Shown piece after piece: positions 14,301 through 63,300 of a stretch of 64,000 nt of DNA. Both the position numbers and the translations under genes were made by a program. How positions within the stretch are numbered: position 1 is the stretch's first letter; each line of letters starts with the position of its first letter. The stretch is from contig OZ024740.1 in the NCBI GenBank assembly GCA_964016885.1, forward strand, positions 298,344,001 through 298,408,000, read 5' to 3'. The DNA is from Eledone cirrhosa. Lineage: Eukaryota. The notes below the pieces were generated by a model. The model made no database searches. It saw only the letters and a program-made list of their open reading frames with translations, and had not been told where the DNA came from.

Positions 14301-17300
14301 TTTCGAGATTTATTTTATGAAAAAAATAGCGTCTGCCACACTGGGAAACATGGTAATTGTAGAAAATACTCATATGTATTTAGTAATATTCCTTACATTC
14401 TGAATTCAAATACCGTTGGAGTCAGCTTTACCTTCATCTTGGAAGGATGAAGGACAAAAGTACTAGGGTAAAAAAAAAAATTTCTTTTTACCACCTTGAA
14501 AAAAATGTGTGGCTTTGTGCCTAAGTTAGAAATCAATATTACAAATATTCTAGGTTGATTATTTTACTCAGCAAACCAAATCAAACTACAAGAATGTTCA
14601 CAATGCAGACCCATTATATCCACAAGCAGAAGAACCGCTCTTCGGGCAGTTTTCTGCTAGTATATATAGTGTGTATATTGATATACGCAAATATATATGC
14701 ACATAGATATAATACGTAAATTGACAATATGCACATAAACTGAACAAAGACTGTGTTACACTTACTTGTGTAATCAGTAAAGTAATCCATGATACATTTA
14801 AAAAAAGGCGATAATGGAGATGGAAAAGCAATGCAACTGTTGACGGAAAATGTTCATGAATCTTCACTTGAGAATGTTGATGGGAAGCTCCAAGCAGTGA
14901 ATTTGAAAATAGATGCTGCTGGTATGAATGAATGAATTACATTTACCAATATGAAGAGTTGACCTTCGCTATATTGTTGTTTTACTGTATTTACATATAG
15001 ACTTCTTAAGTTTTTGTAGTGTCCCTTTTCTAGCAGTTAAAAAGAAACTGAAATGCATTTCAACTAAAAGAGAGTGATAGCTGTTTCACATCACTGTAGA
15101 ATTTCTTTGTGACACAGTTGTCAACAAACAGACTCCTTTCATTTAATATTTTAATATTTTCTTTTTTTTTCTAACTCGTGATAATGCAACATACACCTGA
15201 CCATGTGAGAAGAATTGTGTTGGTAGATATACACCTATCTTTTCAAATGTCTGGCCTTGTGCCTTGTTGCATGTAAGGGCAAAGGCTGGTTTGACAGGAA
15301 CTTGCTTGCAAGTAAAGGTGAAAGGGAACTCAAGCTCTTGAGATACATGTGGTATCCTTGGGATTAGCAACCTTGTTCCAGCATTGGGACCCAATGCCAC
15401 TTCAGCTTCAATTAAATGATTATGTAAACTGATGATGATGTAGTGTGTACTATTGCAATGATCGTTTAGAGGATCCAGATTTCTCAGAAGCATGATGCAA
15501 CTGCCTTCAGTTTAAGTATGTGTGTTGGGAAGCCTGATGGGGTAAGTTTGTTGATGAACTTAATTGGATATTGCAGTTCATTATCTACTGTATCAGAGCT
15601 TCTGTAGATTATTTCATGACCAGGGAACTTGTTGACCATGAACTCATTCACCAATCTTGCTGCATCATTTGTTGGAGTGATAATGGCTCTATTTGCAAGC
15701 CATAGTGGGTTTGTGTAGTTTCCTGGAAGATTTGTATACACAAAATGTCCAGACACATTACTATATTCCAGACATTTGGCAGAAGAATTGGGAATGCACC
15801 TACAGTTGGAACAGTTAGAATGTTACCATTTCCCACATCAAGAAGGTAGTTTGCAATCCTCTGCATTAATTAACTGTTGATTGGTTGTCATCTCCATGGT
15901 TTCCACATAGGATCTCTTGTTGGTTGCCTCAACTATTTGTGGTCTAGCACCATGATGTACAACTGGAAGAATTTGCTTCCAGTCACCAGATAGTAATACT
16001 GTTAGACCACCAAATGGCTTTTTGCAATCTCGAACATCTTTGAAGCTCCTGTCAAGGCATTCAAAGATATGCTTATGTCCCAAACCTATCTCATCAATGA
16101 TTAGCAGGTCAGCTTGCTGCATAAGTTTACCTGTGTCATCCCTCTTTGTGAAGAAGCAAGTTGATTCAGCAGTCACATTGAGAGGAATCTTGCACTTGGA
16201 ATGAAGAGTTCTACCTTTGTGAAGCAAAGTGGCTGCTATTCCAGATATGGCAGTGGCAAGTGCAATTTTTTTTTTAGATCGGAGGTAATCCAATAGGATG
16301 TTTATGACATAGGTCTTTCCTGTACCTGCACTTGCATTCAAGCAGAAAATTCTGCCTTCATTTTCATTTACAGAGGTGATTACTTTGTGAAAAATAACCA
16401 GTTGCTCAGGATTCAATGTTGGCAGAAGTTCATTTATGTTTGCTTACAGTTGGTGTGTATTGAAATCAGTTTCTGCCATAAGAATCCTGTTGATTTCTGG
16501 TATGGCAACAATAGTTGGGTCTGGCCGAGAAAGTCCATAGTTGGCATGAATGTCCAAGCAATTATGTTGAAGTTTTTGTTGGGTCTTCTGTCGAACAATC
16601 TGCATGGTTTGCATGGACATGATGTTCATGCATGATATCCTCTGCAAGACAATTCTTCCATTTCTTCCAGAACTGCAGAGGGTCATTTGGCATGCTGTAC
16701 AATAAAATGGTGCAGAAGATCTCTCGCAGCTGAGGAACAAGCGTGATGGATGAAGCCTCTTCCATAGCTTTGTCTTTTTCTCCATCTTCATCTAACAGAC
16801 CAAGTTTCCTGCATGCTTCTTGGAATGTTGGAAATTCAACTCCTTCAATTGTCCTCAAATCTTTGTATGAAGTTGACCTAGCCTTGTGATGTAGGATCAT
16901 CCTGAGGTAATATAATTTAGATTGATGTCTACTGAGAGACACTGTTGGAATGCATCCAAGAGATTCACTAATAAATTGTTGATCACCATCCAGATGTCCC
17001 TTTTTTCTTCTTTGCCACTTTTTGTTTGTCCAAATGAAATATTTAGGAATATCAATATACAATATGTTTTGTGCCAGTGGGTCTCTAATATTCAACTTAG
17101 TCATTGGCTGTCCCCTAGAAACAATATTTTCTTCCTGCCCTCGCTCATACACGACTATTTGTTCCCCAGGTAAATGGCAAGGCAACTTTTCAACTGGCGG
17201 TTTTCGATGATGTAATGGAAATTGACAGATTCTCCAGAATGCTTCACTGGCTGAGATGTACCGTGCATTAATATAGGTCTCAATCTCATTTTGGGCATGG

Positions 17301-18987
17301 ACACAATTTCCTTGATCATCCTTAATAGTGAAAGTGATCTTGTCTGATCCTTTTGTGATGTACTTATATAAGTACTTAACAGCTTTGACACTGTGGACAA
17401 CCTCACAATTGATGTGGCACTGATATCTCAATGAGAGGAAAGGGTTGTATGGAACAATCCAACGAATATCAACAGTAAATTTTTTATCTTTAAGTTGGAT
17501 TGTATGGGTGTGACCGCCATGCTGTCTATCCCTTCTTCTATACTTCGGAAAGGAATTTTCGGCAACAAATGTGGTTTGTCTGAATGCCTTGGGATAACTT
17601 TTTCAGCAATGGCATTGTTGTCCTAGCCCTTCCATACATGAGCACATTATATTAGCTTGTCCACATGGGCCATGAATGTTGCAGGATGTGATGATCTTAT
17701 GCAGAATTTGATTGGTCTCTTTATCAGGAATCTCACAGTACACTACCTGATCAATGGCATCAGGCAGTTTTGGGCTTGCTATCTTCAGCAATTGTCAGCA
17801 GAATATGAGCATGAGTGAGGCCTCGTTTTCTGCCACTCTATTGTAGCAGAATGAGCCACAACTTTTTCTAGGACATTTTTTTCCAGTATGTCATCCATGA
17901 GGCTGTCATACTTGATCTTGAAGACTCTTGCACAAATATCAGGACGGTCTCTAGGTTCTTCACCAGGGTGCAAACTATTTTTTATTTCATCCCAGTTAGG
18001 GTTAGTTGTTACCGTGATGAAATAAGATGGCTTTCCCATATGTCGAACCACAGTCATCGAATTCTGAAAGCACTCACTGTAGAAGTGAGGGGAACCATAG
18101 ATTGAAGGAGGAAGAACAATTCTCCAGCCTGCACTTATTTCAGACGTTAGACTGTGCCCATGCTGAGGTACCACGATTAAAGGATTTTCTTGACCTCAAT
18201 TCCAGTACATATATTTTAAAATCTTGTACTTATTTTATTGATCTCTTCTATTCTCTTTGAAACGTGTGTGTCTATGTGTTCATATGTATGATGGTGCCCT
18301 ATCGCTTGCGACGAGGATTCTTCCAGCTAGGTTTCTCAAATGGAACTGCTTGAAATTAAGGTGCGAGTGTCTGAGCATTCCATAAACACGTATAACGGAG
18401 GGTTTCAGGGTGGGACTACATTGGTTCTTTGACTTACTGGCAGAGTACACCTTTTTTTACTTTAGTGGAGAGAAGAAAGGCAAAATAAAGTGTCTTGCTC
18501 AAGAACACAATGCACTGATGGGATTCGAACTCTCAACATTACAATCACGAGACACACACATGGACATAAACAGTACGCATGCACAGTACAGCCCAGCCTT
18601 CGCGCATGCACACTTCGGACAGGCCTTTGCACATGCGCAGTGTAAACCAGCCTTCGCACATGCACAGTACGGACCAGACATTGCGCATGCGCACTTCGGA
18701 CCAACCTACACGCATGCGCAGTATGAACCAGACTTCGCACAAGTGCAGTATGGACCAACATTCGTGCATGCGCACTTCGGACCAAAATTCGCGCAGGCGC
18801 ACTTTGGACCAGACATCGCCTATATATATGTCTATGTGTGAATAGATATATTTGTGTGTGTGTGTGTCCGTTAGATGTATTATTGCATTTCATGAATTAC
18901 GAAGCATTTGCAAGTTACTTCACCTGGGGAGGATTAATAATAGCTTCACTAACTTCGAAAAACGATTTGTGTGTGGTGTGGTATGTA

Positions 18988-19038
<51 letters not shown>

Positions 19039-22000
19039 TTGTGTCTGCATCAAACATAATTTATATGCTATTACATTTATATATATCTAATCAATGGGCG
19101 TACAACAATGCTTAATCTAAACTATAATAAAGTAAGAAGCGCAGGACTGCACACGGTTTATAATTTTTTATCCCCTTAGTAAAATAAGTTGGATTACTTT
19201 GAATAAATAATTGTTTCTACTTTTGGCACAAGGCCAGAAATTATTCCAGTGTATTACTGGTACTTTATTTTATCGACCCCGTAGGGATGAAAGGCAAAGT
19301 TAACCTCGGCGGGATTTGAACTCAGACCATAAAGGGCCGTAACTCTTTGCTGCAAAGCACGGCGTCTGACCCTCTACCGATACTGCCAATACACCGCCCT
19401 TACTTTGAATAAATAATGAATGAATATTACAATTTGTCTACTAAATTTTGTGGCTGTTCATTAAATATATTTTATTACTTATTTAAAGATTCATTTTTTT
19501 AAAATTTTCAAATCTCAACACTTCTGGTTAGTGATCGTTTAAATAAATATTCATATATTTCTGTCACTAATTTTCTTCTAATGCAGTTTATATATAATAT
19601 CGTCTTTTTTTTAATGTATCATGGATTACGTTACTGATTACATAAGACAGTGTAACACAGTCTTCGTTCAATTTCTGTGTATATTGTCAATTACGGTTTT
19701 ATTTGATGTATCATATATACTTGTGCATAATATCAATATACACACTACACATGCTAGCAGAAAAACCACCCTTCGGCTGGTTTTTCTGCTAGTTATATTT
19801 ATTTATTAACTTTTTTTTTTTAACTCATTTAATATAACGTTATACTTGTTTTACCCTCCCATTTCTAATTAAACCGAACGCTATCATGACTGTATGTGTG
19901 CGTTTGTGTAAATGTATATGTGTGAATGTATGTATGTTTGTGTGAATGTATGTGTATTTGTGTGAATTATGTACGTGAGTGTGTATTTTTATAAGTTTGT
20001 GTTTGCATCATTATAGTTATATACTCATACATATAGATGTATGTGCACACTCATACACGTCAGTGTGTAGAAAATCATAATCTCTCTCTCTCTCTCATCA
20101 CACACTCTCTCTTTCTATATATATATATATATATATATGGTAGTTGAAGTGGTGGTGGTGGTGGCGATGATATCCCGGAAGTGCAACTTTGAAAAGTCAA
20201 TTTTAGATTATTTAATTTTACAAAATTATTTGTTTACGAAATTTAGTACATAAATTATGTAATATTCATTCATTATTTATTCAAAGTAATCCAACTTATT
20301 TTACTAACTGGATTAAAAGAAATAAACCATACGCAGTCCCACAGCCCTTACTTTATTATAGTTTAGGTATCACGAGCAGAATGGCCCGGCGTTGCTTGGA
20401 ATTCTAAACATAGATTGGCATGTTTATCCCTCCTTTCTGAAATAGTTTCGTCGTATGTTCACCAATGGATGCAGAAGTCCTAATAAAAAGTAAGTCGCCT
20501 TGGGTGAATAGGCAAAGAATTTTCCATTAAGATTTTTCGAAAGCATGTAATTGCATTCCCTCTTTTTTTGTTGTTGTTTTTGCTGCTGTTGGTGTGATAG
20601 CGGCCGTTGGTCGTACTACTATCACAGTCTCGTCCTTCATCAGCCAATCGTGTATATCCCCTTCTGCCTCGTCAGCAATGAGAACAATATTTGCTCTAGG
20701 GTTCTTATATATTTGATATATATTTATCCTTATTGAGCCTCATGAAATAAATACGTTTGTTTATATTTTGTTATTGTGTATGCAAAAATATCTGTACACG
20801 AATATATAATTTTATATATATATTAAAATAACAGATTAAAGTTTAAGCGAAGAATCGCTGCTTTCACCCTTAACGGATCTTCTGAAACTAAAAAAAAAAT
20901 CAATCTGTGAACACAGAAGTAAATATTTCGAAAAACGTTACACACTATATATCATCATCACCGTTTTACGTCCGTTCTTCCACGCTAGCATGGGTTAGAT
21001 GGGTTGTCCTGTTGTGGGCAGTGTCTGGTCGGCTGACCATGCCTTGCTCATACAGGAACTGATTTGGCTTGATTTCTACAGCTGGATGCCCTTCCTAACA
21101 CCAACCTCATTTACAGTGAGTGCTGGGTGCTTTTTCGTGGCGCCTACACGTCCACCTTGCAGTGGGGGGTGTGGGGGGTCATATTGTCTATATGCTTCAG
21201 CTTGTACCCATGGCAGGTCGGGTACTCTGTATTACTGCGTGACGCCAGAGGTCACGGTCGTGTGTCATCGCCTTTGAGAGGTGTAATTGGGTAAGGTCGG
21301 CTTTTATCACCTCATCCCAGGTCATCTTGGGTCTCCCCACTCCGCGGTTTCCATCAACTTCTAGTGCTCTGCACCTTTTTATGCAGCTGTCATCCTTCAT
21401 ACGCATCACATGTCCATACCAGCGCAACCGCCTCTCCTGCACACAGCATTTGATTCCTCTTATGCTCAGTCTCTCTCTCAATTCATTTATGCTTTGTCGT
21501 TCGCGTATATTACTGTTACACATCCATCGGAGCATGCAGGCTTCGTTTCTCTCTAATCTACGTAAGTCTTCCACCTTCAGCGCCCAGGTCTCACTACCAT
21601 GCAACATCGCTGTTCGGATACACGCATCATACAGTCTGCCTTTCATTTTGAGGGAGAAGCCTTTTTCAGCTAGCAGTGGTAGTAGTTCCCTAAACTTCTT
21701 CCATCCCGTTCTTACCCTAGTTATTGTACTTTCTGAACACCCACCTCAGCTGCTAATTCGGTCACCTAGGTAGCAGAAGCTGTCTACTGTTTCTACAGAG
21801 CCCTCCCAGAGATTGGTGGTACTTGTTTCCTGTGGCTGTTTGCTGCTTGCTGTCCCAGCACAGCTGCTGCATGTGAAGCCTACATTCTTAATTAAGCTTC
21901 CTGAGATCCCGCTACATCTCTTGTGTACCCATTGTTTGCATTTGGGGCAGAGAATGGAGTTCCTACCTACACCTTTCCTACATACTGAGCAAGGCCATAC

Positions 22001-25000
22001 TCTGAGGGGATCTGGGTTCTGTTTTCTATATATATATATTGTTTTCTATATATATAAAAACACACTATATATATATATTCACACAAACACAAAGTGTCAT
22101 AATGTTGTAATGCAGACAGCCAGATATTATAAGGGTGCGACGTCATTGCTATCTAATGCGGTCCCTAGGGCATTGAAAATTTGAAATATTTTTTGCTCAA
22201 AACACTCACACGACCATAAGTATTACATGTGTAAAGTTTGAAAAAAAAAAAAAAAAAAATCGGTTGGGTGGTTCTCGAGTTTTAGGGAGACATCTATATA
22301 TCTAAAACAGAGAATATCTGTCTAACAGCCACATGTGTTGTGTCCATAGTCAAGAAAATTCTCAAATGGATCAGTTTATTTAGATGTAATTGTTTTCTGT
22401 AGAATAAGAACTCATCATAGGTTCAAATAATATAAAGTGTTTTGTTAGCTGGCAGTACTGAGTTCAAATCTTAGTTGTAAACAGGTTTTGCAGAATACAA
22501 ACAACTTATAGGTATAAACAATGTAGAGTGTTTTGTAAACTGGCAGTACTGAGTTCATATCTTCATAGGGGTATAGCTTGGAGGTGGATGGGCTCCACCT
22601 AACTGACATCAAAATGTTTAATAGGACCATCATCATCATCATCATTTAACATCTATTTTTCAATGTTAGCATGGGTTAAGCAAGTTGTCAAGATGTGAGC
22701 CAAGCCAGAGCAGATGACTGTGTCTTGCTCACACTGGACTGATTTTGGCTTGGTTTCTACGACTGGATGCCCTTCCTAACACCAACCACATTTACAGTGT
22801 ATGCTGGGTGCTTTTAGTTGTGACACCTACATGACCACTTTACAGTGTGGGCTCAGGACATGGGTGGGGAGAGGGGAGGTAGATCTAGTGATATAGGTAT
22901 AAACAATGTAGAGTGTTTTGTAAGCTGGCAGTACTGAGTTCAAATCTTCATAGGGGTATAGCTTGGAGATGGATGGGCTTCCCCTAACTGACACTGACAT
23001 CAAAATGTTTAATAGTACATCATTATATATGAATAGCTCTCATATCAGTTTTGATGAATTAATGTTCCAATTGTTTGATCAAAAGAATTATCTATTCATT
23101 TCTCTACAGTGTAGTAAGTGAATATACGCAGGGCCGTCTTAACGCATGGGCACGCTGGGCAGTTGCCTGGGGGCCCCACGAGGATAGGGGACCCATTTGT
23201 ATTTTTATTCCTGTGAGTGGTTGTGTAGGTAGGGGCCCCAGTGCTCTGCTTTGCCCGGGGGGCCTATAATGCTGTTAACTTGCAGCCTTAACTTAATATA
23301 TAGGCAGGCTTAGTGTGACAAGGCTTGACCTTTTGAATTACAGGTACACTATGCTATAGGTTTTCACACTCCCCAATTTCACTTATAAAGCATGGTCAAC
23401 TCGAGATTAAGGTAAAAGACTAAAAGTATGTATGTAAAACACACACACACACACACACAACCACCATCATCATCGTTTAACGTCTATCTTCCACGCTCGC
23501 ATGGGTTTAAATGGGAATTGTCCCACTTGAAGCAAGATTGGTTGTCTTGCTCCTATAGGACTGTCTGGCAGGTTTTCTACGGCTGGATGCCCTTCCTAAC
23601 ACCAACCACTTTTACGTTCATATACATACATCATCATCGTTTAACATCCATTTTTCCACGCTAGCATGGGATAGATGAGTTGTGATTGTCCTGCTGTGAG
23701 ACAAGCAAGATCAGATCACTGTGTCTTGCTTGTTTCTGGTTTGGTTTCTATGGCTAGATGCCCTTCCTAACACCAAACATATTTACTGTGTGTACTGGGT
23801 GCCTTTTGTTGTGACACCTACACAACCTCTTTACAGTATATACACACACACAAAGCTTTAAAATCAATTTTTGATAACAACGGAAGATTACCAATTTGTA
23901 GGGAAGGGATAATGTTGATAAAAATGGATGCCATCAACCTGGGAAGGCTGAATTGTAAAATTAATTTCAGTAGAATTTTATCTCAAAATATAGAGGAATG
24001 TCACTGAATAACACAATAGTGATGAAATTTACTGATTCTGTGCTGTTTATTTTTTTTAACAATAATAAAATGAAAGTTATATTTTCCTTGCCATCAGCCT
24101 ACAATGTTGGATTGGCTAATAGCTCATGTTTGTTTTGAGAGAGAGAGAGGGAGAGGGATTAAGTTGTTAAACAAACTAAAAAAGTGTAATTACCATATCA
24201 GCATCTTCGGGCTCAGTTTCTAACCATTCACAGATTAAACTGGTTTTCAGATCTTCAAAAGGCAACTGGTGTATGGAAGCTATCTGTTTGGCCATGTTAT
24301 TGATATCTAGCAATAAAAAAAGTAAACTTATTTTAGATCCCAACAAAATTTGAGAATATGTGCACATATGCACAATGAAGGAATATGGAGCTATTAGGGC
24401 AATTGCTCCTTAATCACAAGTTCAAAATTTGTTAACCCTTTTGTTACCGTATTTCTAATGAAACACATTGCACTTGAATTAATTAATGACCAATTTCGAG
24501 GGATTTACTAAAATTATTAATTATTTCATTTCTAAGATAGTATCTTTAGCATTTACATTACTCTATATTTACTATTACATTTTCATGGTAAAGGCTTTAC
24601 TCACATAATATCTTAGATACTATTGAATCTATGAGATTTTGATATTTATTTTGAGAACAATATCTTAACATCAGTATGAGTGGCCTGTTACAGCCGGTTT
24701 GAATAGAAAGAGGTGAGAAAATTCTGGCCGAATACGGTCGGTTAAATGCTAAAGGGTTAACATGTCTTTTATATTATAATTATATTGGAAAATTTAAATT
24801 CAAACGGGAATATTTTAAAATGGGTTAAAACTATTGCTTTTTCCTTAAAACATGACACACAACTGCTTACCTCAACAAACATGGTTAAAAAAATAGTATC
24901 ACTCGTATAGAGGGAATAAGAAAAATCGTAGGTGAATATAGTGAAAAATCGTAGATGAATATAGTGAATTTTTTACTTGAAAGGTTGGTAGATGAGATGA

Positions 25001-31000: not shown

Positions 31001-34000
31001 AACCCCAAGACAGCTCATACACAAATATAAAAATTGCTATCTATGACCAAATTTTCTTTTCTAGTTGAAACTTTAAGGTGCTTTTAAATTAAATTTTGAT
31101 ATGGAAAAAGGCAGGCTCAAAGCATTTATAGGCCTTATAGTAGTGAGGTTGACATGAATATTTTGTTTGAATTTCTGCAGGAAAATGTGGGCAGTAGAGG
31201 ATAAGAAGTTTCAGTGAAGTGTTTAGTGTAGGGTTTTGAGAAAGATGATACACAATAGGGATACTGAGAGGAAAACAGAATGATGTATTTGGTGGTTTAG
31301 TATGCTAGTTTAGAGGGACAGGAACTATTGTAATATAATAGTAGAAGAGACAAGATATAGCATGTTAGAGTGTAATTTGTTGTAGTCTAGAAAGCTAGTG
31401 TATATCCCAAGCATGGTGTATTCACACCTTGTATATGTTGAACGGTTGTTAAGAGCTGAAGTACTTTCTGGTCTTGAAGATACAACCTAACCATTGAGAT
31501 ATTGTTTTGACTATGTTAAAGGTTATGTGGTTGATATGAATTGCTACTTCTGGTTCTGATGCACATTATTTTTTGGTTGTCTTACTGAAGTTGAATGTTT
31601 TATCCGAATAAAAAAAGATAACTTCTAGGCTATTGTTTCTCATTATAACAATTATAAAAAAAAAAAAAATTGAATTAGTATTCTTTTCAATGAGGACATG
31701 CACCAGTTAAGTATGGGGAGACATTTGTTCCCCTTGGCTAAAGAGAACAAAGAAACAGAATGGAATAAAATGTTCTAGTTTGCTCAAAGTATTGTGTATA
31801 ATATATAATGTGGAAAGTGATATATGTAAGAAGACTAAGATAATGCAAAATGGATGGTAAGATGAAGGCAACAAAAAAGTTAGTTACATGGTAATCTTTT
31901 TTTTTTCATCCTAATATTTCAGCACTTAAAATTCCCTTTGTCAGAGTATAAGGAACTCTAAACGTTCTGGTCTATTGAAATATTAGGAGAAAAAAAAAAA
32001 AAGAAGATTACCGTGTAACTAACTCTTTCCTTGCCTTCATCTTATCATCCATTTTTCATTGTCTTAGCCTCCTTACACATATCACTTTCCACATCATCAT
32101 TTCATTTTACGTCCGCTTTTCCCTGCTTGCAAGGGTGGGACAGGAACTGATTCTGGTTTGATTTCTACAGCTGGATGCCCTTCCTAACACCAACCTCATT
32201 TACAGTGAGTGCTGGGTGCTTTTTTTGCTATGGCACCACGACCACTTTGCAGTGGAATGATAGGGACTCCAGTCCCTATCATCTCATTTCTACAGCTGAG
32301 TAAATTGGAGCAATGTGAAATAAAGTGTCTTGCTCAAGGAAACAACACATCACCCGGTCTGAGAATTGAACTCACAACCTTTCGATTGCAAGGCCAATGC
32401 TCTAACCACTAAGCCACGTGCCTCCATATCATATATATTATATATTTACATAAGATAATGAGTAGGGTGGTAATGATTGCTGTGATAGAAGCAGTCATAG
32501 TGATGTCAGATGTTAACAGCAGTACTCAGATTTTGAAGCCTAATGTTTGAAATGTTTGTGAAGGCTTTAGATCTCAGCTGTACACAAGTTATAAGGACAG
32601 TAATATAAGTGATGGGTAAGACTAAAACAACCACAGATAGCATAGATGGTAATCCTAACATCTGTTCTTGAATAAAACACTCAATTTTACATCACTCCAG
32701 TATACTCAGCTAAAAATTAGTACCAGCAGTAGCTGGGGGCTTAACCCTGCTAAGGACTAGCGCCGTGTTCAGAATGGAGATTTATACTCTCAGTTACTTA
32801 ACACCAAGGAAACCAAGATAAGCACCAGCCTAGAGAGACTCCGGACTTGAGAGAGATTTTAGACAATGAAGTTTACTCTGTTTGCAAGCATTCAATTTAG
32901 ACATCTGACACCAACCCCATTTACACTGATGTAGCATTAATCACATCAATCTCATCTGCCTGAGTGTGCCTACAAAGGTCAAGAGGACTGCAAACCATTC
33001 ACCTGACTAACTTGTTAGAAAAAAAAAAAAAAAATTTAATGAAAGATATACAGTAGATTTTTACTGATTAATCATACAAAGAAAACAGAGAAATTTATTT
33101 TAATTTGTTTATATATTAACTCTTAAAATCCTGTAATGATTTAGTAGAAAATATTTTAAAAAATAGCTTTGTTAATTCAAATATTTATAGTGTCTTTACT
33201 AGTGGACAGATCAGTGAAAACTTGCAGTATTATAGTCAAGACTAATTTTTAATGTGGTTCAGTCACAGTGCTGTTTTATACTTTTCAAGAATGTCTTTGC
33301 TAATGAAGTTTGATGTGGTAAAGAGCATTCAGAGTTAAGAAACCCTTGTTAGCAGGGGAAGTGGATGTTAAAACAATAAAGCTGAAAGTACTTACAAATT
33401 ATCTGCCACGGATCACTGATCAGAGAGTTAAAGGCCAGCCTTGTTGAACTGACTGATGGTAAACATTCAATGATATATTGTAACTATTGAGTAGATAATA
33501 AAATATTAAAGATTAAGTGTTGGATAGCATTTCAAAATAAAGGGTTGGAAACAATTGAAAAGATTATTGAGAAAACACTGACTTCAAATCAACGAGGCAG
33601 TCTTGACATGGTCATTTAACCTGCAAGAAACAACAACCAAATCACTCTCACATCACACTCCATTGATGTAAAAAAAGTAAGAACATACATAGGATAATGA
33701 CACCCTAGTTAACACAAAGCCTTATTAAAGGAAATGGGCTTTTTAGCATCTCATGACAACATTTTTTTTCACTATTTAGATTATTGTCATGAATCTTGGG
33801 TAATGACTGAAACACAAGCAGCTGGGGTTCTTCTGAAGGGTCTTTGGAGTAATGTTACCCGATAGAGTGTGTTGCTTGGAGATCTAGAAGCCACTCCAGG
33901 TAGAGTTGCTACTTCTCTGATACTACAGACGTGGTCAGAATGTCTAAGGAAAGACTCGCTGGACAGATTTTTACAGGCAAAACGATCTGGCAGGAGGCCC

Positions 34001-37000
34001 AGAGCAAGATTGATGGATAACATTCAAAAGCTTGACTGGTTTCGCTTGGAGAACCAGCCAGTTGCTTCTGACAGATCTGCTGGAAGGCATGCTTCAGGAT
34101 TTGGTTCTCATGATCCTCCCAGGAATAAGTGGGAGCAGGAGAGGAGAAGGAGAGGAGAAGGAGAAATTATAAAGGGAAGATGTATTAGTTTATCAATACA
34201 ATACTGGTTCTTACTTTAGTAATATCGGCAAAATGAAAGCTGTAGTCTGCCTCATTGAGATTTAAGGCCAGATGTGTAAAAGTTTAAACTAGTTACTGCA
34301 AAATAACTAGAGAAAATAATTGTTTCTACTTTAGGCACAAGGCCAGCAATTACCCAGTGCATTACTGGTACTTTATTTTATCGACCCCGTAAGGATGAAA
34401 GGCAAAGTCAACCTCGGCGGGATTTGAACTCAGATCGTAAAGGGACGTAACTATGCTGGAAAGCATGGCGTCCGACCCTCTACCGATACTGCCAATCCAC
34501 CGGTTCAGTAGCTTTTTACACTTCAAGGAGAAAACACAACAGACAAAGATTTATTGACAAATGATGGCCAGACAGATATATATATATATAGAGAAAATAA
34601 CTAGAGAAAATAATAGTTTGTATATAAGTTGGAAGTCAAGACTATATGATTGTAAGATACTGATAGTTTTTCAAAGAACATTACAGATTGAAATGAAATG
34701 CAATAGTTGCTGCTTGGAATTCAAAGTGGGTTGTGAAATTGGCAGACCCCAAAAACATATCACTACAATACATATAATACAAGAGAAATAGTGATTTCCA
34801 ACACAGGTACAAAAGAACTACTCCACACTTTGAAAAGAAAACTGAAAACAAAGTACTTACATTCTCCTGGTTCCCATCAGTACAGAAATGCCTTTCATAG
34901 TCACAAATATCAGCAGTTCTCTTGTAATTTTTCAACCAGTTCAGTAGCTTTTTACACTTCAAGGAGAAAACACAACAGACAAAGATTTATTGACAAATGA
35001 TGGCCAGACAGATATATATATATATGGACAAATAAGTAATGATTTCTTTTGACTCGGTACAAAGCTATTTTCAAATAAAAAAGATGGAAGAACATCTAAC
35101 AGCTGAAGCAGAAACTGCTGAGCTGAACGATCTCCACTCTGTTTCAATATCCTCAGTTTGCTTAGGGAGTTGCCACATAAAAACGAAAAAGGGGGAGGAG
35201 AATGAACACGCACATATATATATTGACATGTCATAATACAAGTGAGCAAAGAGCAATTCAACTATAATTGTTTCTACTTTTGGCACAAGGCCAGCAAAAG
35301 ACCCAGTGCATTACTGGTACTTTATTTTATCGACCCCGTAAGGATGAAAGGCAAAGTTAATCTCGGCGGGATTTGAACTCAAAATGGCAAGGACCGTAAC
35401 TCTATGCGTCAAAGCATGGCGTCCGACCCTCTACCGATACTGCCAATTCAACTATAATGATGTTGAACTTACCTTATCGAAGTATGGTGTAGCTTCAATT
35501 GCATAAGCTTCTCCCAGAATCAGACCCATAGTTTCATAATCATACATATTGATCTATTGATTGAAAGAAGAACTAATGTTATGTATACAACTTGGGAAAG
35601 GGTAAACACTTATGTCTACTGCATAGTGAAACTAGAAGAGCCTGTTGCTTTAAATTCTTACCTGGGAAATGTTCTAAATCTAAGTCTTTATTAACTCTTA
35701 ATATCTTGTAATGCTTTATCAGAAAATATCTAAAAATCAGGCTTGTTAATTCAAATGTTTAGTGTCTTTACTAGTGGACAGATCAGATTGTTGTGAACAA
35801 TTTGCAGTAAACTTAAGACATTAAAATCATTAATATAATGCAGTCATAGTGCTGTTTTGGACTTTTCAAGAATGTCTTATTAATGCCGTTTTATGTGGTC
35901 TAGGACTTAAAAAGTTAATGAGAGGAAGAGGGAGGAAACAAGAAGAAAAGATAAAGAAAATGAGTAAAAATGATGGGAGATAAAGAAAGGAGAGGTGGAG
36001 GTGGATGACGGAGTGGGAGAAAGAAAGGTAGAGAGAAATAACAAAAATAGTTGAAAGGAAAAGTTAAATAGGCTAATGAAAAAGGAAGAAGAAATACTGA
36101 CCGAATTAATTAAGTTTGAGAGCTCTTTTAGCAGTCTAGATTTTGATTTAACACTTCGTATTATTGCCAGCACTCTGTTCTGCTTATGATGATATTGTGA
36201 AGGGGTGGAGCTTGACAATTGTGCATAGGAGACAGCCATAGACTTGACCACATATTTTAAATATAACAGTAAGCCTTCATCTTCCTCAATTTGGAAATCT
36301 CTGAATAGAAAAATAATTGAATAAGTACACATATTTATTCATTTTGTTTTACATGGCCACAACTTCAGTCTATTGCTACATATATTCTCTCTACTCTCAT
36401 TTGCCAGACAAATATTACTGCTTATATGGAATATAAAACTTCAGCTTTGAATAAACTCTACCATGTCTATTGAATACTATTTTTCTATGATTGAAAAAAA
36501 TCCAAGCAAGCAGAAAACTCACTTGCAGAAAGTTTTAACAAGATCAACTCCAATTGAATTGCAGGATGCCATTTGCTGTAGGACTTTGTATTTCTCCTTT
36601 AGTGGGCCATGGAATGCAGCTTTGAAACATATCTGAAAACATGACAGAAAGATAGTCTAAATGATAAGTTAGAGTTAGAAATGTTGTCGTCTCGTAGCTT
36701 AGTGTAAATGAAAATTCTTCTTCATCGCTCACTTATTCCTGAGAGGATCGTCGGGGGAGTCATCAAACACTCTTTCAGATGGTCCTGTCAGAAGCAATCA
36801 TCACCAACTGATCTGGTTGGATTCCCAAGTGAGACCAGCCAAGCTCATGAATATTATCCAAACATCTTGCTTAGGGCCTACTCCTGGGTCTCCTGCCCGT
36901 TAGTTTTGCCTGTAAAATGTGTCTAGCAATTCTTTCCTGAGACATTCTAACCACATGCCCATAGTATCAGAACTGTGATCTCTCAATCTGGAGAAGTAGC

Positions 37001-43000: not shown

Positions 43001-46000
43001 CTGGGAACTTTTTACCGTGTTACCTACATGGCCACATTACAGCGTGGACTGTGTGTTTTTTTTGTCGTGACACCTACACGATCTCGATCTCATTTATTTG
43101 GACTGGATGTTGTGGTACCAACTTTACAGAGAGAGGGTGGTGTTCGCGGGAGTGGGCGGATAGGGTAGGGTAGCGGATTGGGGTATATATTTGGTTAAGA
43201 AGTGCCTACTGACTGTAGGTTTCGTTTTGTACATAGGCAAGGCGGATCTTCTGTATTACTGCGTAGCGCCAACGATCTCGGTTCAGTGACATTATCTTAG
43301 AGAGGTGCAAGTGTGTAAGGTCGGAATTTATCAGATCGTCCCAGATTTTTCTGGGTCTACCTACACCGTAACTACCATTAATTTTGATCGCCCTGCACTT
43401 TTTATACAGCTGTCGTCTTTCATGCACATCACGTGGCCATACCAACGTAGTCTTCTCTCAAGTAAACAGCATCTAATCCCTCTTATTTCTAATTTCTCAC
43501 TTAGTTCATTTATGCTTTGCTGTTCACGTATATTACTATTACACATCCAACGGAGCATGCATGCTGCGTTCCTTTCCAGTCTGCGCAAGTCCTGTGCACG
43601 TAATGCCCATGTCTCACTGCCATGTCGCATTGCTGTTCGTATACAGGCATCATACAATCTGCCTTTCATTTTTAGAGAGAAACCTTTTGTGGCCAACAGC
43701 AATATAAGCTCTCTGAACTTTTTCCATCCAGTTCTGACTCTGGCTACTGAACACCCTCCACCACTGTTGATTTCGTCACCTAGGTAACGGAAAGTGTCCA
43801 CTATTTCTATAGAACCATCTGGGCAATAGAAGGAGCTAGTATCCTGTGGACACCTGCTACTTATTGCACCTGAGCATTGGCCACATATAAAGTCTACATT
43901 CTTAGATAGTTTACCTGTGATCCCACTACATCTTTTATGTACCCATACTTTGCATTTGGGACATAAAATGGAGTTTCTACCTACTCCTTTCCTACACACT
44001 GAGCATGGCCATTTCCCTGAGGGCACCTGTGCCCTATTTCCCTTTCTACAAACTAGAACTTTAGCCTTAGACAAGTTAACTTTAAGGCCTTTTGATTCTA
44101 GGCCATGCTTCCATGTTTGGAATTTCTTCTCTAGTTCAGCCATTGATTCAGCTATGAGCGTTAGATCATCTGCGTATAGGAGTCCCATGGGCAGCCGGTC
44201 TTGAAATCTAGCAAAATTTAATAAGAAGATGGATGACGACGATGATTATTCAAGACTTGAGAGTATATGAACAGCCATACTGTTGACATTATTATATTTA
44301 TAAACTTTAAATCTTGATGCAGAAGAAAGAATAGTAATAGAATTGTATATGGAGTAGTTGACTCTGAATGTATCTAGAAACCTCACACTTCATACCTAAA
44401 TATTGGAAAATATTTACTGAACTATTGCAAAAACTTCACACAACATACCTGAATATTGGGAAGTACAAACTAAGCATCTGCAAAAACTTCATACATTACA
44501 CCTAAATATTTGAAAATATTTACTGAACTTCTGAAAAAACTTCACACAAAACACCTGAATATTGGGAAATACTTACCGAACTTCTGCAAAAGTGGATCAA
44601 GCTGAATACTACTTGCAATCAAAGGAATAAGGGCAGATGATTCAATGATAAAACAATCTTCTTTAAACTGAGAAGTTAAGCTCCATTTCTTATCCACATT
44701 GGACTTGTCTTGGTTTTCACCACTATTATTCAGTGCCTAAAGCAATTATTTTGCCAATTATAAAAAAAAAACTGTTGTAGAGAAGAGAATTAAGATCAAC
44801 AAGTTCTTGTTAGTGTTAAAAAGACTGAACCCCTTGGCAACTGAGTGTCTTGGTCATGAACAGCCATGGACATAGTTATGGTAACAGGTTACTAACTGTG
44901 ATTTCTCTGTTTGGTCATCCTATCATAGTTTTCACTTAGCCATTCAGCTTTGCCATTTATTAATCATAGTAACATTATGGTCAAATCAGTTCAACATCAG
45001 CCAATACAACAAACAGTTTTTTTTAAGATGAAATCTTATTTTGAACTGTTGGTCATCACTTTCTCCAACCTCACAGACATTTTAGAAGCAATGAGGGAAA
45101 CTATGTGGTTGATTAAGCTGCAAGAAAAAGCTGCTAAATTTTCCTTGTCCCCTACTGTATTAAATAAGGAAAAGGCATTAGATAATGTTGTCATACAAAG
45201 TTAGGATGGTCATGACAGCAATGTCTTTGATCACAGGTTTGTTCAATCAAAGGTAATCTCGATCTCAACAAGAACAACAATATTATCCCAATCAACTAAT
45301 GAACAAGACTGCAGGTTTTCACAGAATAAAATGAATCAATAGTTTTCAAATAACTCACGTATGCTAGAGACATGTGTTCAGCCATATCGGTTTGTTGTAT
45401 TGCGGCTGCAGCAAGTCGAGTATTCTTTGCTACTTGGAGAAATTTGATTAGAGATGCTGAAATATATAACAACAAACTAGAAATGAATAAAGAGAAAAAA
45501 AAAAAAAAATTTTTTTTTATCCAATCTCCTTGTTTTCTGTGTTTTAGTAAAACCCAACTGAGGCAATGAAGTGGCCTCTATGTAGCCATTCAACCTGCTA
45601 GAAATAGCAAGCAAATTTTCCTCAAATCTCACCGTACTGACTCGACCCTTTCATTAACATATTTCCAATAAAAGAAACAATTTTCAAATAATTTTGAAAA
45701 TAATCAAAAATTTGGAAGGAATTAGTAATATAACTAACTTACTCATTATTAAGTTATTGTTTGAAAACTGTGGTGGAAGGTTACAGTTAGAACAGGATGG
45801 GAAAAAGTTCAGAGAGCTACTATCACTGCTAGCTAAAAAAGATTTTTCCCTCAAAATAAAAGGTAGATTGTATGAAGCTTGTGTACAAAGATCAATGCAG
45901 CATGGAAGTGAGACCTGGGCAATATGTGCAGAGGGTCTACGAAGACTAGAAAGAAACAAAGCCCACATGCTCTGATGAATGTGTAATATGAAAAAGCATC

Positions 46001-60300: not shown

Positions 60301-63300
60301 AGGGGGGGGGGTTCGATTAAATGTTAATGCGTTAAAAGTGCTTTATTTTATCGACCCCATAAGGATGAAAGGCAAAGCTAACCTCGGTGGGATTTGAACT
60401 CAGAACATAAAGGGCCATAAATCTATGCTGCAAAGCATGGTGTCTGACGCTCCACTGATTCTGCCAATCCAACAATAATGAAAATTATTGTGTACAGTGC
60501 TCAGGTGCACTACAACTCACCTCAAAGGTGCATATATAGTACATAGTATAATGTACAAATGTCAGGAAAGTAAACAGTGTATGAGTCATGATATACACAG
60601 AGATACATACGGGAGTGTGTATGGATGGGGAATATCAGGTGTAATGTTGGCAAATTTCGGGAAGCATGGAAGCTTTGAAAGAGTAGTGTCCCAACAGCTA
60701 ACAACTGATGCAGGTAGTTTGTTCCATGCTTCAGCAACTTCCATGCAACTCTGAGCATGCAAAAATGTTTCCGAAAGTCATGGGAGCTGTACTCATACAA
60801 AAAAATCTAATCAATAATTTCAATTAATTAATTAATTTTCGTTAATCTCATCAGGAATAAATATGTCTGTACGTGGCTACAGCAGAAGATACAGTGGATT
60901 TAAATGAAATGCGAGATCACTTATTACAGTGCTTATTTCTGGTGGTGTACACAAGATAAACACAATTTATTTGACCCCAGGAAGACCACGAGGCATTTAA
61001 TCCATTATTCTACAAATCTACTGTCCATTGCCCTTATAAAAGTGTATGAAAATATTCACTATTATAAGAGCACTGTCTGTCTGTCCGTCTGTTATGCTCA
61101 CTTTATATAGTGAGGGGGAGTACCAAGCAAGAGATATGTACATAAATAGAGAAAAAGGAACGCCGTGTGTTTTCAAGGTGACAGAAAGAGGTACATAGAG
61201 AGAAAGTTACCACATCACCCTCATCTATATAGAAAGAGGGGGAGCGCCAAGCTAGAGAGAGAAAAGGAACATCATTTTTTAAAAATGAATGTGTGTGTTG
61301 TGACAGAAAGAGGGAGAAGATGATGTCGCCCTCATCTAGTCTTCAATAAAAGTGAAATGATGCATTGAAGATAACTAAGAAAAGAGGAGAAATAAATAGA
61401 CAAAAAGATTCAACTTAACCATCTTGCCAACAACAACCTGAGCATCTTTTTGATTTCCTACAAAGTCAGAAAACAGCACAAGCTCCCATGACTTTCGGAA
61501 ACAATTTTTCACGCTTAGAGTTGCTGAAGCATGGAACAAACTACCTGCATCAGTTTTTAGCTGCCGAGACACTGCATCCTTTAAAACCTCCATCATCATC
61601 ATCATCATCGTTTAACGTCCATCTTCCATGCTAGCATGGGTTAGACGGGAGTTGTGCCACTTGAGGCAAGGTTGGTCGGGTGACCGTGTTTCGCTCATAT
61701 AGGACTATCTGGCAGGCTTTCTACGGCTGGATGCCCTTCCTAACACCAACCACATTTACAGTGTGGAACTGGGAACTTTTTACCGTGACACCTACACGAT
61801 CTCGATCTCATTATCTCATTTATTTGGACTGGATGTTGTGGTACCAACTTTACAGAGAGAGGGTGGTGTTGGTAGGAGTGGGAAGATAGGGTAGGGGTAG
61901 TGGGTTGGGGTGTATATTTGGTTAGGAGGTGCTAACTGACTGTAGGTTTCGCTTTGTACATAGGCAAGGCGGGTCTTCTGTATTACTGCGTAGCGCCAAA
62001 GATCTTGGTCCAGTGACATTGTCTTAGAGAAGTGCAAGTGTGCAAGGTCGGAATTTATCAGATCGCCCCAGGTTTTTCTGGGTCTATCTACACCGTAACT
62101 ACAATCAATTTTGATCGCCCTGCACTTTTTATGCAGCTCTCGTCTTTCATGCGCATCATGTGACCATACCAACGTAGTCTTCTCTCAAGTAAACAGCATC
62201 TGATCCCTCTTATTCCTAATTTCTCACTTAGTTCATTTATGCTTTGCCGTTCAGGTATATTACTATTACACATCCAACGGAGCATGCATGCTTCGTTCCT
62301 TTCCAGTCTGCGCAGGTCCTCTGCACGTAATGCTCATGTCTCACTGCCATGTAGCATTGCTGTTCGTATACAGGCATCATACAATCTGCGTTTCATTTTT
62401 AGAGAGAAACCTTTTGTGGCCAACAGCGGTATAAGCTCTCTGAACTTTTTCCATCCGGTTCTGACTCTGGCTACCTACTTTCAGAACACCCTCCACCACT
62501 GCTGATTTCGTCACCCAGGTAACGGAAAGTGTCTACTATTTCTATAGAACCATCTGGGCAATAGAAGGAGCTAGTATCCTATGGACACCTGCTGCTTATT
62601 GCACCTGAGCATTGGCCACATATAAAGTCTACATTCTTAGATAGTTTACCTGTGATCCCACTACATCTTTTATGTACCCATACTTTGCATTTGGGACATA
62701 AAATGGAATTTCTGCCTACTCCTTTCCTACACACTGAGCATGGCCATTTTTCTTTCTACAAACTAGAACTTTAGCCAAGTTAACTTTAAGGCCTTTTGAT
62801 TCTAGGCCATGTTTCCATGTTTAGAATTTCTTCTCTAGTTCAGCCATTGATTCAGCTATGAGCGTTAGATCATCTGCGTATAGGAGTTCCCATGGGCAGC
62901 CGGTCTTGAACTCCTCTGTTATAGCCTGAAGAGCAATAATAAATAGGAGGGGGCTATGGACTGAGCCTTGATGAATGCCAACTTTTACACTAAATTCTTC
63001 ACAATATTCATTGTTAATTCTAACCTTACTGACTGTTTCATTAAACATAGCTTGTATAGCTCTCACAAGCCATTCATCTAAACCTAGTTTTCTAAGAGCC
63101 CACCAGATAATGTCCATGCTTCCTGAAATTCGCCAACACTGCACCTGATATCCCCCCTCCATACACACGCACACATGTATATCATGACTTATACACTGTT
63201 CATTCATTTCCCTGACACTTGTGCATTATTCTATGTACTATACATGCACCTTTGATGAGTTGTAGTGCACCTGAGCACTGTACAGAATAATTTCATTTCA

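What the first reader, a model, noticed from the sequence alone, without database searches (positions are those of the whole stretch)
34300..35025. SINE insertion that co-captured a copy of the host gene's own splice acceptor, creating a possible new in-frame KNTC1 exon
Seen: a 21-bp direct repeat AAAATAACTAGAGAAAATAAT (34300-34320, 34594-34614) brackets a full tRNA-SINE (34321-34502) plus an ~88-bp copy (34503-34590) of 34939-35025. That source is the intron end, AG acceptor and first 18 nt of KNTC1 exon 34861-34956. On the minus strand the copied acceptor leads into an open phase-0 frame that runs through the SINE head to GAG|GTTGAC, giving a possible 108-nt cassette 34413-34520 ([36 protein letters not shown]). 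Inference: the reverse transcriptase switched template from SINE RNA to the nascent pre-mRNA or to DNA ~440 bp away, so one event delivered both the SINE and a working acceptor. The donor is weak, so use of the exon is unproven.
Basis: partly seen in the sequence, partly recalled or inferred. Interest (0 to 1): 0.72.

Follow-up and report, generated by a model that had tools for sequence, protein, structure and literature searches.

The report
SINE insertion copied a neighbouring acceptor
A young jumping element in an intron of the cell-division gene KNTC1 carries a perfect 87-base copy of the gene's own splice signal from 436 bases away, likely picked up in one untidy insertion of a kind known from human LINE-1; the one spliced transcript seen skips it, so it likely makes no new exon.

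Summary
The structure is real. A 21-bp target-site duplication (TSD) brackets a very young SINE, an exact 87-bp copy (not 88) of the upstream intron end plus 18 exon bases, and a 4-base slipped re-copy of the TSD. The copied stretch occurs only twice in the genome. Short-read contigs support it, and a second organism's contig lacks the copy. The gene is KNTC1 by Pfam. Co-capture in one insertion is likely (~0.9). The geometry fits a switch of the cDNA onto the upstream DNA end; nascent pre-mRNA cannot be excluded. This is the known 'templated insertion' class of LINE-1 (22 among about 3,600 insertions in one preprint). No clean case of this size was found among 90 position-ordered sister copies. 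The exon claim is poorly supported. The proposed donor scores below all 21 inferred donors of the gene, and the copied acceptor is the gene's weakest. The better donors lie past an in-frame stop, so use would more likely give a poison exon. One spliced contig skips the cassette. This scan has noted a similar SINE-plus-local-copy insertion elsewhere in this genome (e1-10313550, unchecked).

The parts
34300..34320 (.). TSD copy at the SINE 3' end (21 bp); begins with the family's ATTAT target motif when read on the minus strand
34321..34502 (-). Young tRNA-type SINE, 182 bp, sense to KNTC1, missing about 4 bases at its 5' end
   Evidence: 5,635 exact matches to its 73-base head; 0 differences to 20 of 77 equal-length sampled copies
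34483..34494 (-). Pol III A-box-like motif
   Evidence: sequence; consensus recalled, not from a call; ARAGORN and Rfam give no hit
34420..34431 (-). Pol III B-box-like motif
   Evidence: sequence; consensus recalled
34503..34589 (-). Templated add-on: exact 87-bp copy of 34939-35025 (69 intron bases with the AG at 34521-34522, and 18 exon bases 34503-34520)
34590..34593 (.). Four extra bases that repeat the middle of the TSD (12-mer at 34589-34600 = 34602-34613); likely a slipped priming at the return to the target
   Evidence: similar slipped re-copies in L098 and L104
34594..34614 (.). TSD copy on the 5'-junction side (21 bp)
34861..34956 (-). Native KNTC1 exon, 96 nt, phase 0-0, weak AAG acceptor, strong GTAAGT donor
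   Evidence: spliced contig of run X4; open 13-exon chain
34939..35025 (-). Source of the add-on: intron end, acceptor and first 18 exon bases
34413..34520 (-). Proposed 108-nt in-frame cassette; frame open but donor very weak, no sign of use
34362..34364 (-). In-frame stop reached if the copied acceptor is read to the stronger donors (last exon bases 34354, 34297, 34215)
35473..35553 (-). Upstream KNTC1 exon (81 nt, phase 0-0)
   Evidence: fills the gap between the pieces of the X4 contig exactly (record positions 1638-1718)
33396..33483 (-). Downstream KNTC1 exon (88 nt, starts in phase 0); its acceptor outscores the copied one
   Evidence: X4 depth in that bin fits the same contig

Best explanation
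A very young SINE sits in a KNTC1 intron together with an exact 87-base copy of the upstream intron-exon boundary inside one 21-base target-site duplication, likely made in a single insertion in which the new DNA strand slipped onto nearby upstream DNA, and the copied acceptor is likely unused. Steps: (1, inferred) a LINE enzyme nicked the plus strand at the ATTAT-type site and copied the SINE RNA from 34321 to 34502, stopping about 4 bases short of its 5' end. (2, inferred) The cDNA end paired imperfectly (5 of 7 bases) with the minus strand at 34932-34938, which is the strand left single-stranded when the upstream broken end is resected or opened. (3, shown as sequence, inferred as process) 87 bases were copied, up to the end of an AT run. 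(4, inferred) The end came back to the 21-base overhang, primed once in its middle, slipped back 13 bases on an internal 7-base repeat, and finished, leaving 4 extra bases and the TSD. (5, partly shown) The copied acceptor is weak and has no good donor before an in-frame stop, so splicing continues from 34861 to 33483.
For: Copy exact, unique and flush with the SINE 5' end inside the TSD. TSD motif and length normal for the family. The source lies on the 5'-junction side in direct orientation. The family makes short 5' add-ons: of 90 position-ordered copies, 62 have an adjacent TSD, 12 none, 1 no tail, and 15 were flagged; by eye 7 of those have short add-ons, two being slipped TSD re-copies. 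Organism B's contig starts matching at 34608 with 197 letters before it that do not lie on the copy. Precedent: L1 templated insertions (10.1101/2024.08.27.596794, passages), flank-derived 5' extra nucleotides (PMC4245944, abstract and passages), and resection of the reciprocal end (10.1101/2024.12.14.628481, passages). Splice scores and the skipping contig.
Against: DNA and pre-mRNA templates predict the same sequence here, because the SINE is sense to the gene. The microhomology is weak: 5 of 638 nearby positions match as well at 7 bases, the last base mismatches, and the length was chosen after the fact. The L1 templates in the preprint typically lay within 15 bp of the site, not hundreds of bases away. 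No second clean case was found in 90 + 82 + 29 sister copies, so the direction rule could not be tested. The empty site was not read directly. The RNA evidence is one assembled contig of depth 7 from a sample not known to carry the insertion, and contigs drop rare forms.
Confidence: 0.62

Rival explanations
1. Same single event, but the reverse transcriptase jumped from SINE RNA onto the nascent KNTC1 pre-mRNA held at the locus, 18 bases into the exon, and copied back into the intron.
For: Orientation equals the pre-mRNA sense and the copy is unspliced. The gene is transcribed. Earlier unchecked notes report SINE fusions with U1, tRNA, U6 and an mRNA piece in this genome, so RNA jumps may be common for this enzyme.
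Against: Needs a free or annealable RNA at exactly this spot. The published local templated insertions that I read are attributed to DNA. The slipped return to the TSD is DNA-templated in any case.
Confidence: 0.2
2. Two events: a repair-type templated insertion flanked by a 21-bp repeat came first and the SINE landed at its edge without a TSD of its own, or the copy was added later at the SINE's 5' junction.
For: Copies without a detectable TSD are common: 12 of 90 and 34 of 82 among 5'-shortened copies. Zero differences in both parts cannot order the events.
Against: The 21-mer would have to begin exactly at the SINE tail with the family's motif and fall in the family's TSD length range by coincidence. 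Organism B shows no copy.
Confidence: 0.1
3. Separate question, exon use: the copied acceptor is used at low level with a donor past the stop (34354, 34297 or 34215), giving a poison exon removed by nonsense-mediated decay.
For: The acceptor and 69 intron bases, with their only AG and one branch-like motif, are identical to a working acceptor. Donors at 34354 (5.6 bits) and 34215 (8.9 bits) fall in the range of the gene's donors; for 34215 the stop lies 147 nt before the exon end. Decay would hide such transcripts.
Against: The acceptor is the weakest of 21 (-2.2 against 6.3 for the competing one). The 34215 exon would be 306 nt, longer than any of the 21 scored exons (59-232 nt). No joint seen.
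Confidence: 0.12
4. Separate question, exon use: the 108-nt in-frame cassette proposed by the first reader is spliced in and adds 36 residues between the third ARM domain and Rod_C.
For: The frame is open and both junctions are phase 0.
Against: Donor -4.3 bits, 4 of 9 matches to the U1 consensus against 5-8 for real donors; several nearer GT sites score higher; spliced contig skips it.
Confidence: 0.04
5. Assembly artefact.
For: No contig across the SINE-copy junction was laid in X1.
Against: Short-read contigs of X1 and X2 carry the copy-TSD junction without a difference and break where a two-copy repeat would break them.
Confidence: 0.02

Closest known systems
L1 'templated insertions' in human tumours (10.1101/2024.08.27.596794; passages read, supplements closed)
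   Same: A genomic segment under 250 bp near the site is duplicated into the insertion during integration; proposed SDSA-like pairing of the cDNA with nearby DNA; rare (22 instances, in a set of about 3,600 insertions).
   Different: There somatic L1 in human cancer, templates typically within 15 bp of the site; here a SINE fixed in an invertebrate-type assembly, template 325-411 bp from the near TSD copy (offset 436), and it holds a splice acceptor.
5' extra nucleotides of zebrafish L2 (ZfL2-2) derived from flanking DNA (PMC4245944; abstract and passages, citing Kajikawa et al. 2012)
   Same: Extra sequence between element 5' end and target, copied from the flank while the ends are joined.
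   Different: Described as several nucleotides; here 87 bases plus a 4-base slip.
[quoted passage not shown] S10 not seen)
   Same: Local DNA added on the 5'-junction side with TSD kept; resection offers the single-stranded template.
   Different: The detailed cases I read are inversions and inverted duplications; this copy is direct.
RNA template-switch chimeras such as U6-L1 and tripartite chimeras (PMC4476161, PMC2104539: search listing only; 10.1101/2025.02.02.635956: abstract and outline)
   Same: Two sources fused 5' to 3' in the same orientation inside one TSD.
   Different: Partners there are distant, mostly abundant RNAs; here the partner is the adjacent locus.
SINE exonisation, for example Alu (recalled; search listing)
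   Same: An intronic SINE next to a splice acceptor could become an exon.
   Different: Alu exons typically take their acceptor from the antisense element after later mutations (recalled); here a sense SINE would borrow a host acceptor at insertion. Use is not shown.

Membership tests
tRNA-derived SINE | Short, non-coding, high-copy interspersed repeat | tested here: met
   182 bp; 5,635 exact head matches, 0 for the reversed control
tRNA-derived SINE | TSD and simple-repeat tail | tested here: met
   TSDs of 10-22 bp in 66 of 90 copies, nearly all starting ATTA
tRNA-derived SINE | tRNA-like head with A and B boxes | tested here: inconclusive
   Box-like motifs by eye against a recalled consensus; ARAGORN 0 hits, Rfam 0 hits, fold not a cloverleaf, z -1.99
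MetaSINE / MESC or other named superfamily | Shared central domain | not testable with these tools
   Consensus is in figures; 2 of 3 supplements of PMC4824008 searched without a hit, 1 not searchable; resemblance is recalled only
tRNA-derived SINE | 3' tail shared with a partner LINE | tested here: inconclusive
   Tail matches only other SINE copies in the window; genome not searched for the partner
Templated insertion at a non-LTR 5' junction | Non-element sequence between element 5' end and TSD | tested here: met
Templated insertion at a non-LTR 5' junction | Added sequence duplicates a nearby genomic segment, under 250 bp | tested here: met
   87 bp, unique source 436 bp away; farther than the typical 15 bp
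Templated insertion at a non-LTR 5' junction | Absent from the pre-insertion allele | tested here: inconclusive
   Organism B's contig lacks the copy next to the TSD, but its loose 197 letters were not displayed; no same-species empty allele seen
Templated insertion at a non-LTR 5' junction | DNA rather than RNA template | tested here: inconclusive
   Both fit; no further clean cases in 201 sister copies
Exonised SINE | Junction reads into and out of the element | tested here: inconclusive
   One spliced contig skips it; contigs drop rare forms and the sample's genotype is unknown
Exonised SINE | Usable donor for the in-frame 108-nt exon | tested here: not met
   -4.3 bits, below 21 of 21 inferred donors

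The most novel reading that the evidence does not exclude
One SINE insertion copied the host gene's own splice acceptor in front of itself, possibly off the nascent transcript, and that acceptor is used in some KNTC1 transcripts, most likely as a poison exon: instant exonisation of a sense-oriented SINE with no later mutation.
Probability: 0.12. Interest if true: 0.6.

Novelty: new member of a known kind. Interest (0 to 1): 0.27.

Why it matters
As it stands, it is a clean inherited example of a templated insertion at a SINE 5' junction outside mammals, with the whole path of the copying strand readable in the sequence. It shows that such events can duplicate a splice acceptor, which is a ready route to new or poison exons. 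With thousands of near-identical copies, this SINE family would allow a genome-wide count that separates DNA from nascent-RNA templates. Without evidence of splicing it is most likely a neutral intronic scar.

Tried and rejected
No RNA holder was listed for the stretch; run X4 is treated as RNA only because its contig joins exons. A protein search for full-length KNTC1 relatives found none (59 candidates, limit 2000 residues), so exons were inferred by hand and only four were read on a transcript contig. Sister-copy survey: 90 position-ordered copies (first 90 of 5,635), 82 5'-shortened copies (90 fetched of 2,002, 8 duplicates dropped) and 29 BLAST neighbours, with 1.5-2.5 kb flanks. Apparent local sources in L065, L070, L074 and L166 continue across the empty site and are older repeats; L006, L010, L031 and L037-L039 are tandem arrays; L055 is an old inverted repeat; L076 is ambiguous. 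L112 has the same layout (21-base add-on, direct, 1,185 bp upstream), but that 21-mer has 2,001 copies in the genome, so it is only suggestive. The survey was not enlarged further, so the direction test stays open. A shorter 12-bp TSD on an empty site with an extra 13-mer was considered and disfavoured because it would not start with the base seen after the SINE tail. Literature searches listed no paper on a templated insertion that duplicates a host acceptor; only listings were seen for most, and subscription papers are missing. PMC12016303 (abstract, passages) and 10.1101/2022.08.06.500894 (passages) held nothing relevant; PMC12741127 was used only for a reference; PMC4758252 (passages) did not settle the SINE superfamily; PMC1190285 is not held. 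bioRxiv supplements are closed, so the figures on template distance and orientation were not seen.

Full report
Observation. Two identical 21-mers lie at 34300-34320 and 34594-34614. Between them, read on the minus strand, come four bases (34590-34593), an exact 87-base copy (34503-34589) of 34939-35025, and a 182-base SINE (34321-34502). The non-repetitive 72 bases of the source match only the source and the copy in this 3.0-Gb genome. Earlier notes of this scan call the genome octopus-like; I did not test that.

Gene. Flanking exons match Pfam ARM_KNTC1_3rd upstream and Rod_C downstream, so the gene is KNTC1/Rod on the minus strand. A hand-built chain of 13 exons from 40150 to 24194 is open in one frame over 529 codons. 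A 2,059-nt contig of run X4 carries 36523-36634, 36102-36300 and 34861-34959 at record positions that leave exactly 81 bases for exon 35473-35553. The native exon and its acceptor are therefore used.

Is it real and derived? Contigs of runs X1 and X2, probably the assembled sample, cross the copy-TSD junction without a difference, with 30 letters on the short side. The X2 contig ends at 34968, 30 bases into the repeated stretch, as expected if that stretch has two entries (the assembly word length of 31 is my assumption). No contig over the SINE-copy junction was laid in X1. In organism B, a contig matches 34608-34763 (15 differences, 2 gaps) and has 197 letters before it that do not lie on the copy. 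The copy is thus absent there; those letters were not displayed, so the empty site is inferred.

The SINE family. Its 73-base head has 5,635 exact matches, and this copy equals 20 of 77 equal-length sampled copies, so it is very young. TSDs run from 10 to 22 bp with a mode of 17-18 in 66 of 90 copies and nearly all start ATTA. The 21-mer here fits both. The tRNA origin rests on box-like motifs against a recalled consensus; ARAGORN and Rfam find nothing. Superfamily and partner LINE were not settled.

How common is the add-on? Among the first 90 copies by position, 62 have an adjacent TSD, 12 have none, 1 has no tail and 15 were flagged. By eye, seven of these carry short add-ons (L045, L046, L087, L098, L104, L112, L116), two of them slipped re-copies of their own TSD, like the four extra bases here. 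None has a unique local copy of 30 bases or more. L112 has the same layout with a 21-base add-on from 1,185 bp upstream, but that 21-mer is a 2,001-copy repeat. A further 82 5'-shortened copies and 29 BLAST neighbours gave no clean case. Long local capture is thus rare in this family, in line with 22 instances in a set of about 3,600 human L1 insertions (10.1101/2024.08.27.596794, passages).

Mechanism. The cDNA runs on the plus strand from the nick at 34320 through the SINE and stops about four bases short of the usual 5' end. It then continues as a copy of 34939-35025. The cDNA end matches the landing site at 5 of 7 bases, reached by 5 of 638 nearby positions; this is weak and the last base mismatches. 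The template strand is the one that would be single-stranded after resection of the upstream end, a process proposed for L1 (10.1101/2024.12.14.628481, passages). Copying stops at the end of an AT run. The 12-mer at 34589-34600 repeats 34602-34613, which reads as a first priming in the middle of the overhang and a 13-base slip back. Flank-derived 5' extras are reported for zebrafish L2 (PMC4245944), and three L1-mediated insertions with locally templated DNA in PMC11702581 (passage). Because the SINE is sense to the gene, nascent pre-mRNA would give the same sequence. I put one event at about 0.9, split roughly three to one for DNA over RNA; that split is a judgement from precedent, not a test.

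Exon use. A weight matrix from 21 inferred KNTC1 donors gives the proposed donor -4.3 bits; the inferred donors score -1.2 to 12.2 when left out in turn, and 84% of 842 intronic GT sites do as well or better. The native acceptor, and so its copy, is the lowest of 21 (-2.2; the competing acceptor at 33483 scores 6.3). The best donors behind the copy, at 34354 (5.6) and 34215 (8.9), lie past a stop at 34362-34364, so any use would more likely give a poison exon. The matrix is small and most of its exons are inferred. The X4 contig shows no piece on the copy and no joint 34861-34520, although a joint with a 21-letter side was listed for another run in that call. This is one contig of depth 7 from a sample of unknown genotype, and contigs drop rare forms. 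It shows that skipping is the assembled form there, not that inclusion never happens.

Comparison and verdict. It works like, and by the features I could test belongs to, the templated insertions of non-LTR elements. It differs in being a SINE, in the template's distance, and in what was copied. My searches listed no paper on such an event duplicating a host acceptor, but the library lacks most subscription papers. The scan has noted a similar composite elsewhere in this genome (e1-10313550, unchecked). Verdict: real, new member of a known kind, exonisation unsupported; interest 0.27.

Noticed in passing
window 35254-35458: An older copy of the same SINE family (about 90% identical, same orientation) with a 15-bp TSD sits in the next intron upstream.
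   Followed up: partly
L076 (G000:C1:48464022-48469094): A 320-bp, 99% identical inverted duplication ends at the SINE's TSD and reaches a few bases past it; could be an insertion-linked fold-back or an earlier event.
   Followed up: partly
L112 (G000:C1:72486608-72491680): 21-base add-on at the SINE 5' end, identical to a site 1,185 bp upstream in direct orientation; the 21-mer is a 2,001-copy repeat.
   Followed up: yes
L051, L094: Young SINE directly behind the tail of an older SINE, with a 15-16-bp repeat around both; dimer by template jump or insertion into the tail.
   Followed up: no
L037-L039 (G000:C1:12.13-12.14 Mb): The same SINE insertion with the same flanks recurs three times about 2.3 kb apart inside a tandem array.
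   Followed up: no
L031-L120: The family targets ATTAT/ATTAA, matching its own tail, with TSDs of 10-22 bp; 5'-shortened copies lack a detectable TSD more often (34 of 82 against 12 of 90, with slightly different cut-offs).
   Followed up: partly
window 15146-18195, minus strand: Broken reading frames that look like a Helitron Rep/PIF1-type helicase (motifs recalled, not scanned).
   Followed up: no
window 21200-22045, 43209-44245, 61819-63225: Related 3' fragments of a LINE reverse transcriptase that look RTE-like (recalled label).
   Followed up: no
window 36102: The transcript contig places this exon's donor at GTCAGT rather than the GTATTT four bases further on.
   Followed up: partly
window about 34136-34167: X1 and X2 contigs of one sample differ by 11 gaps in a GA-rich run just beyond the insertion; possibly a heterozygous indel.
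   Followed up: no
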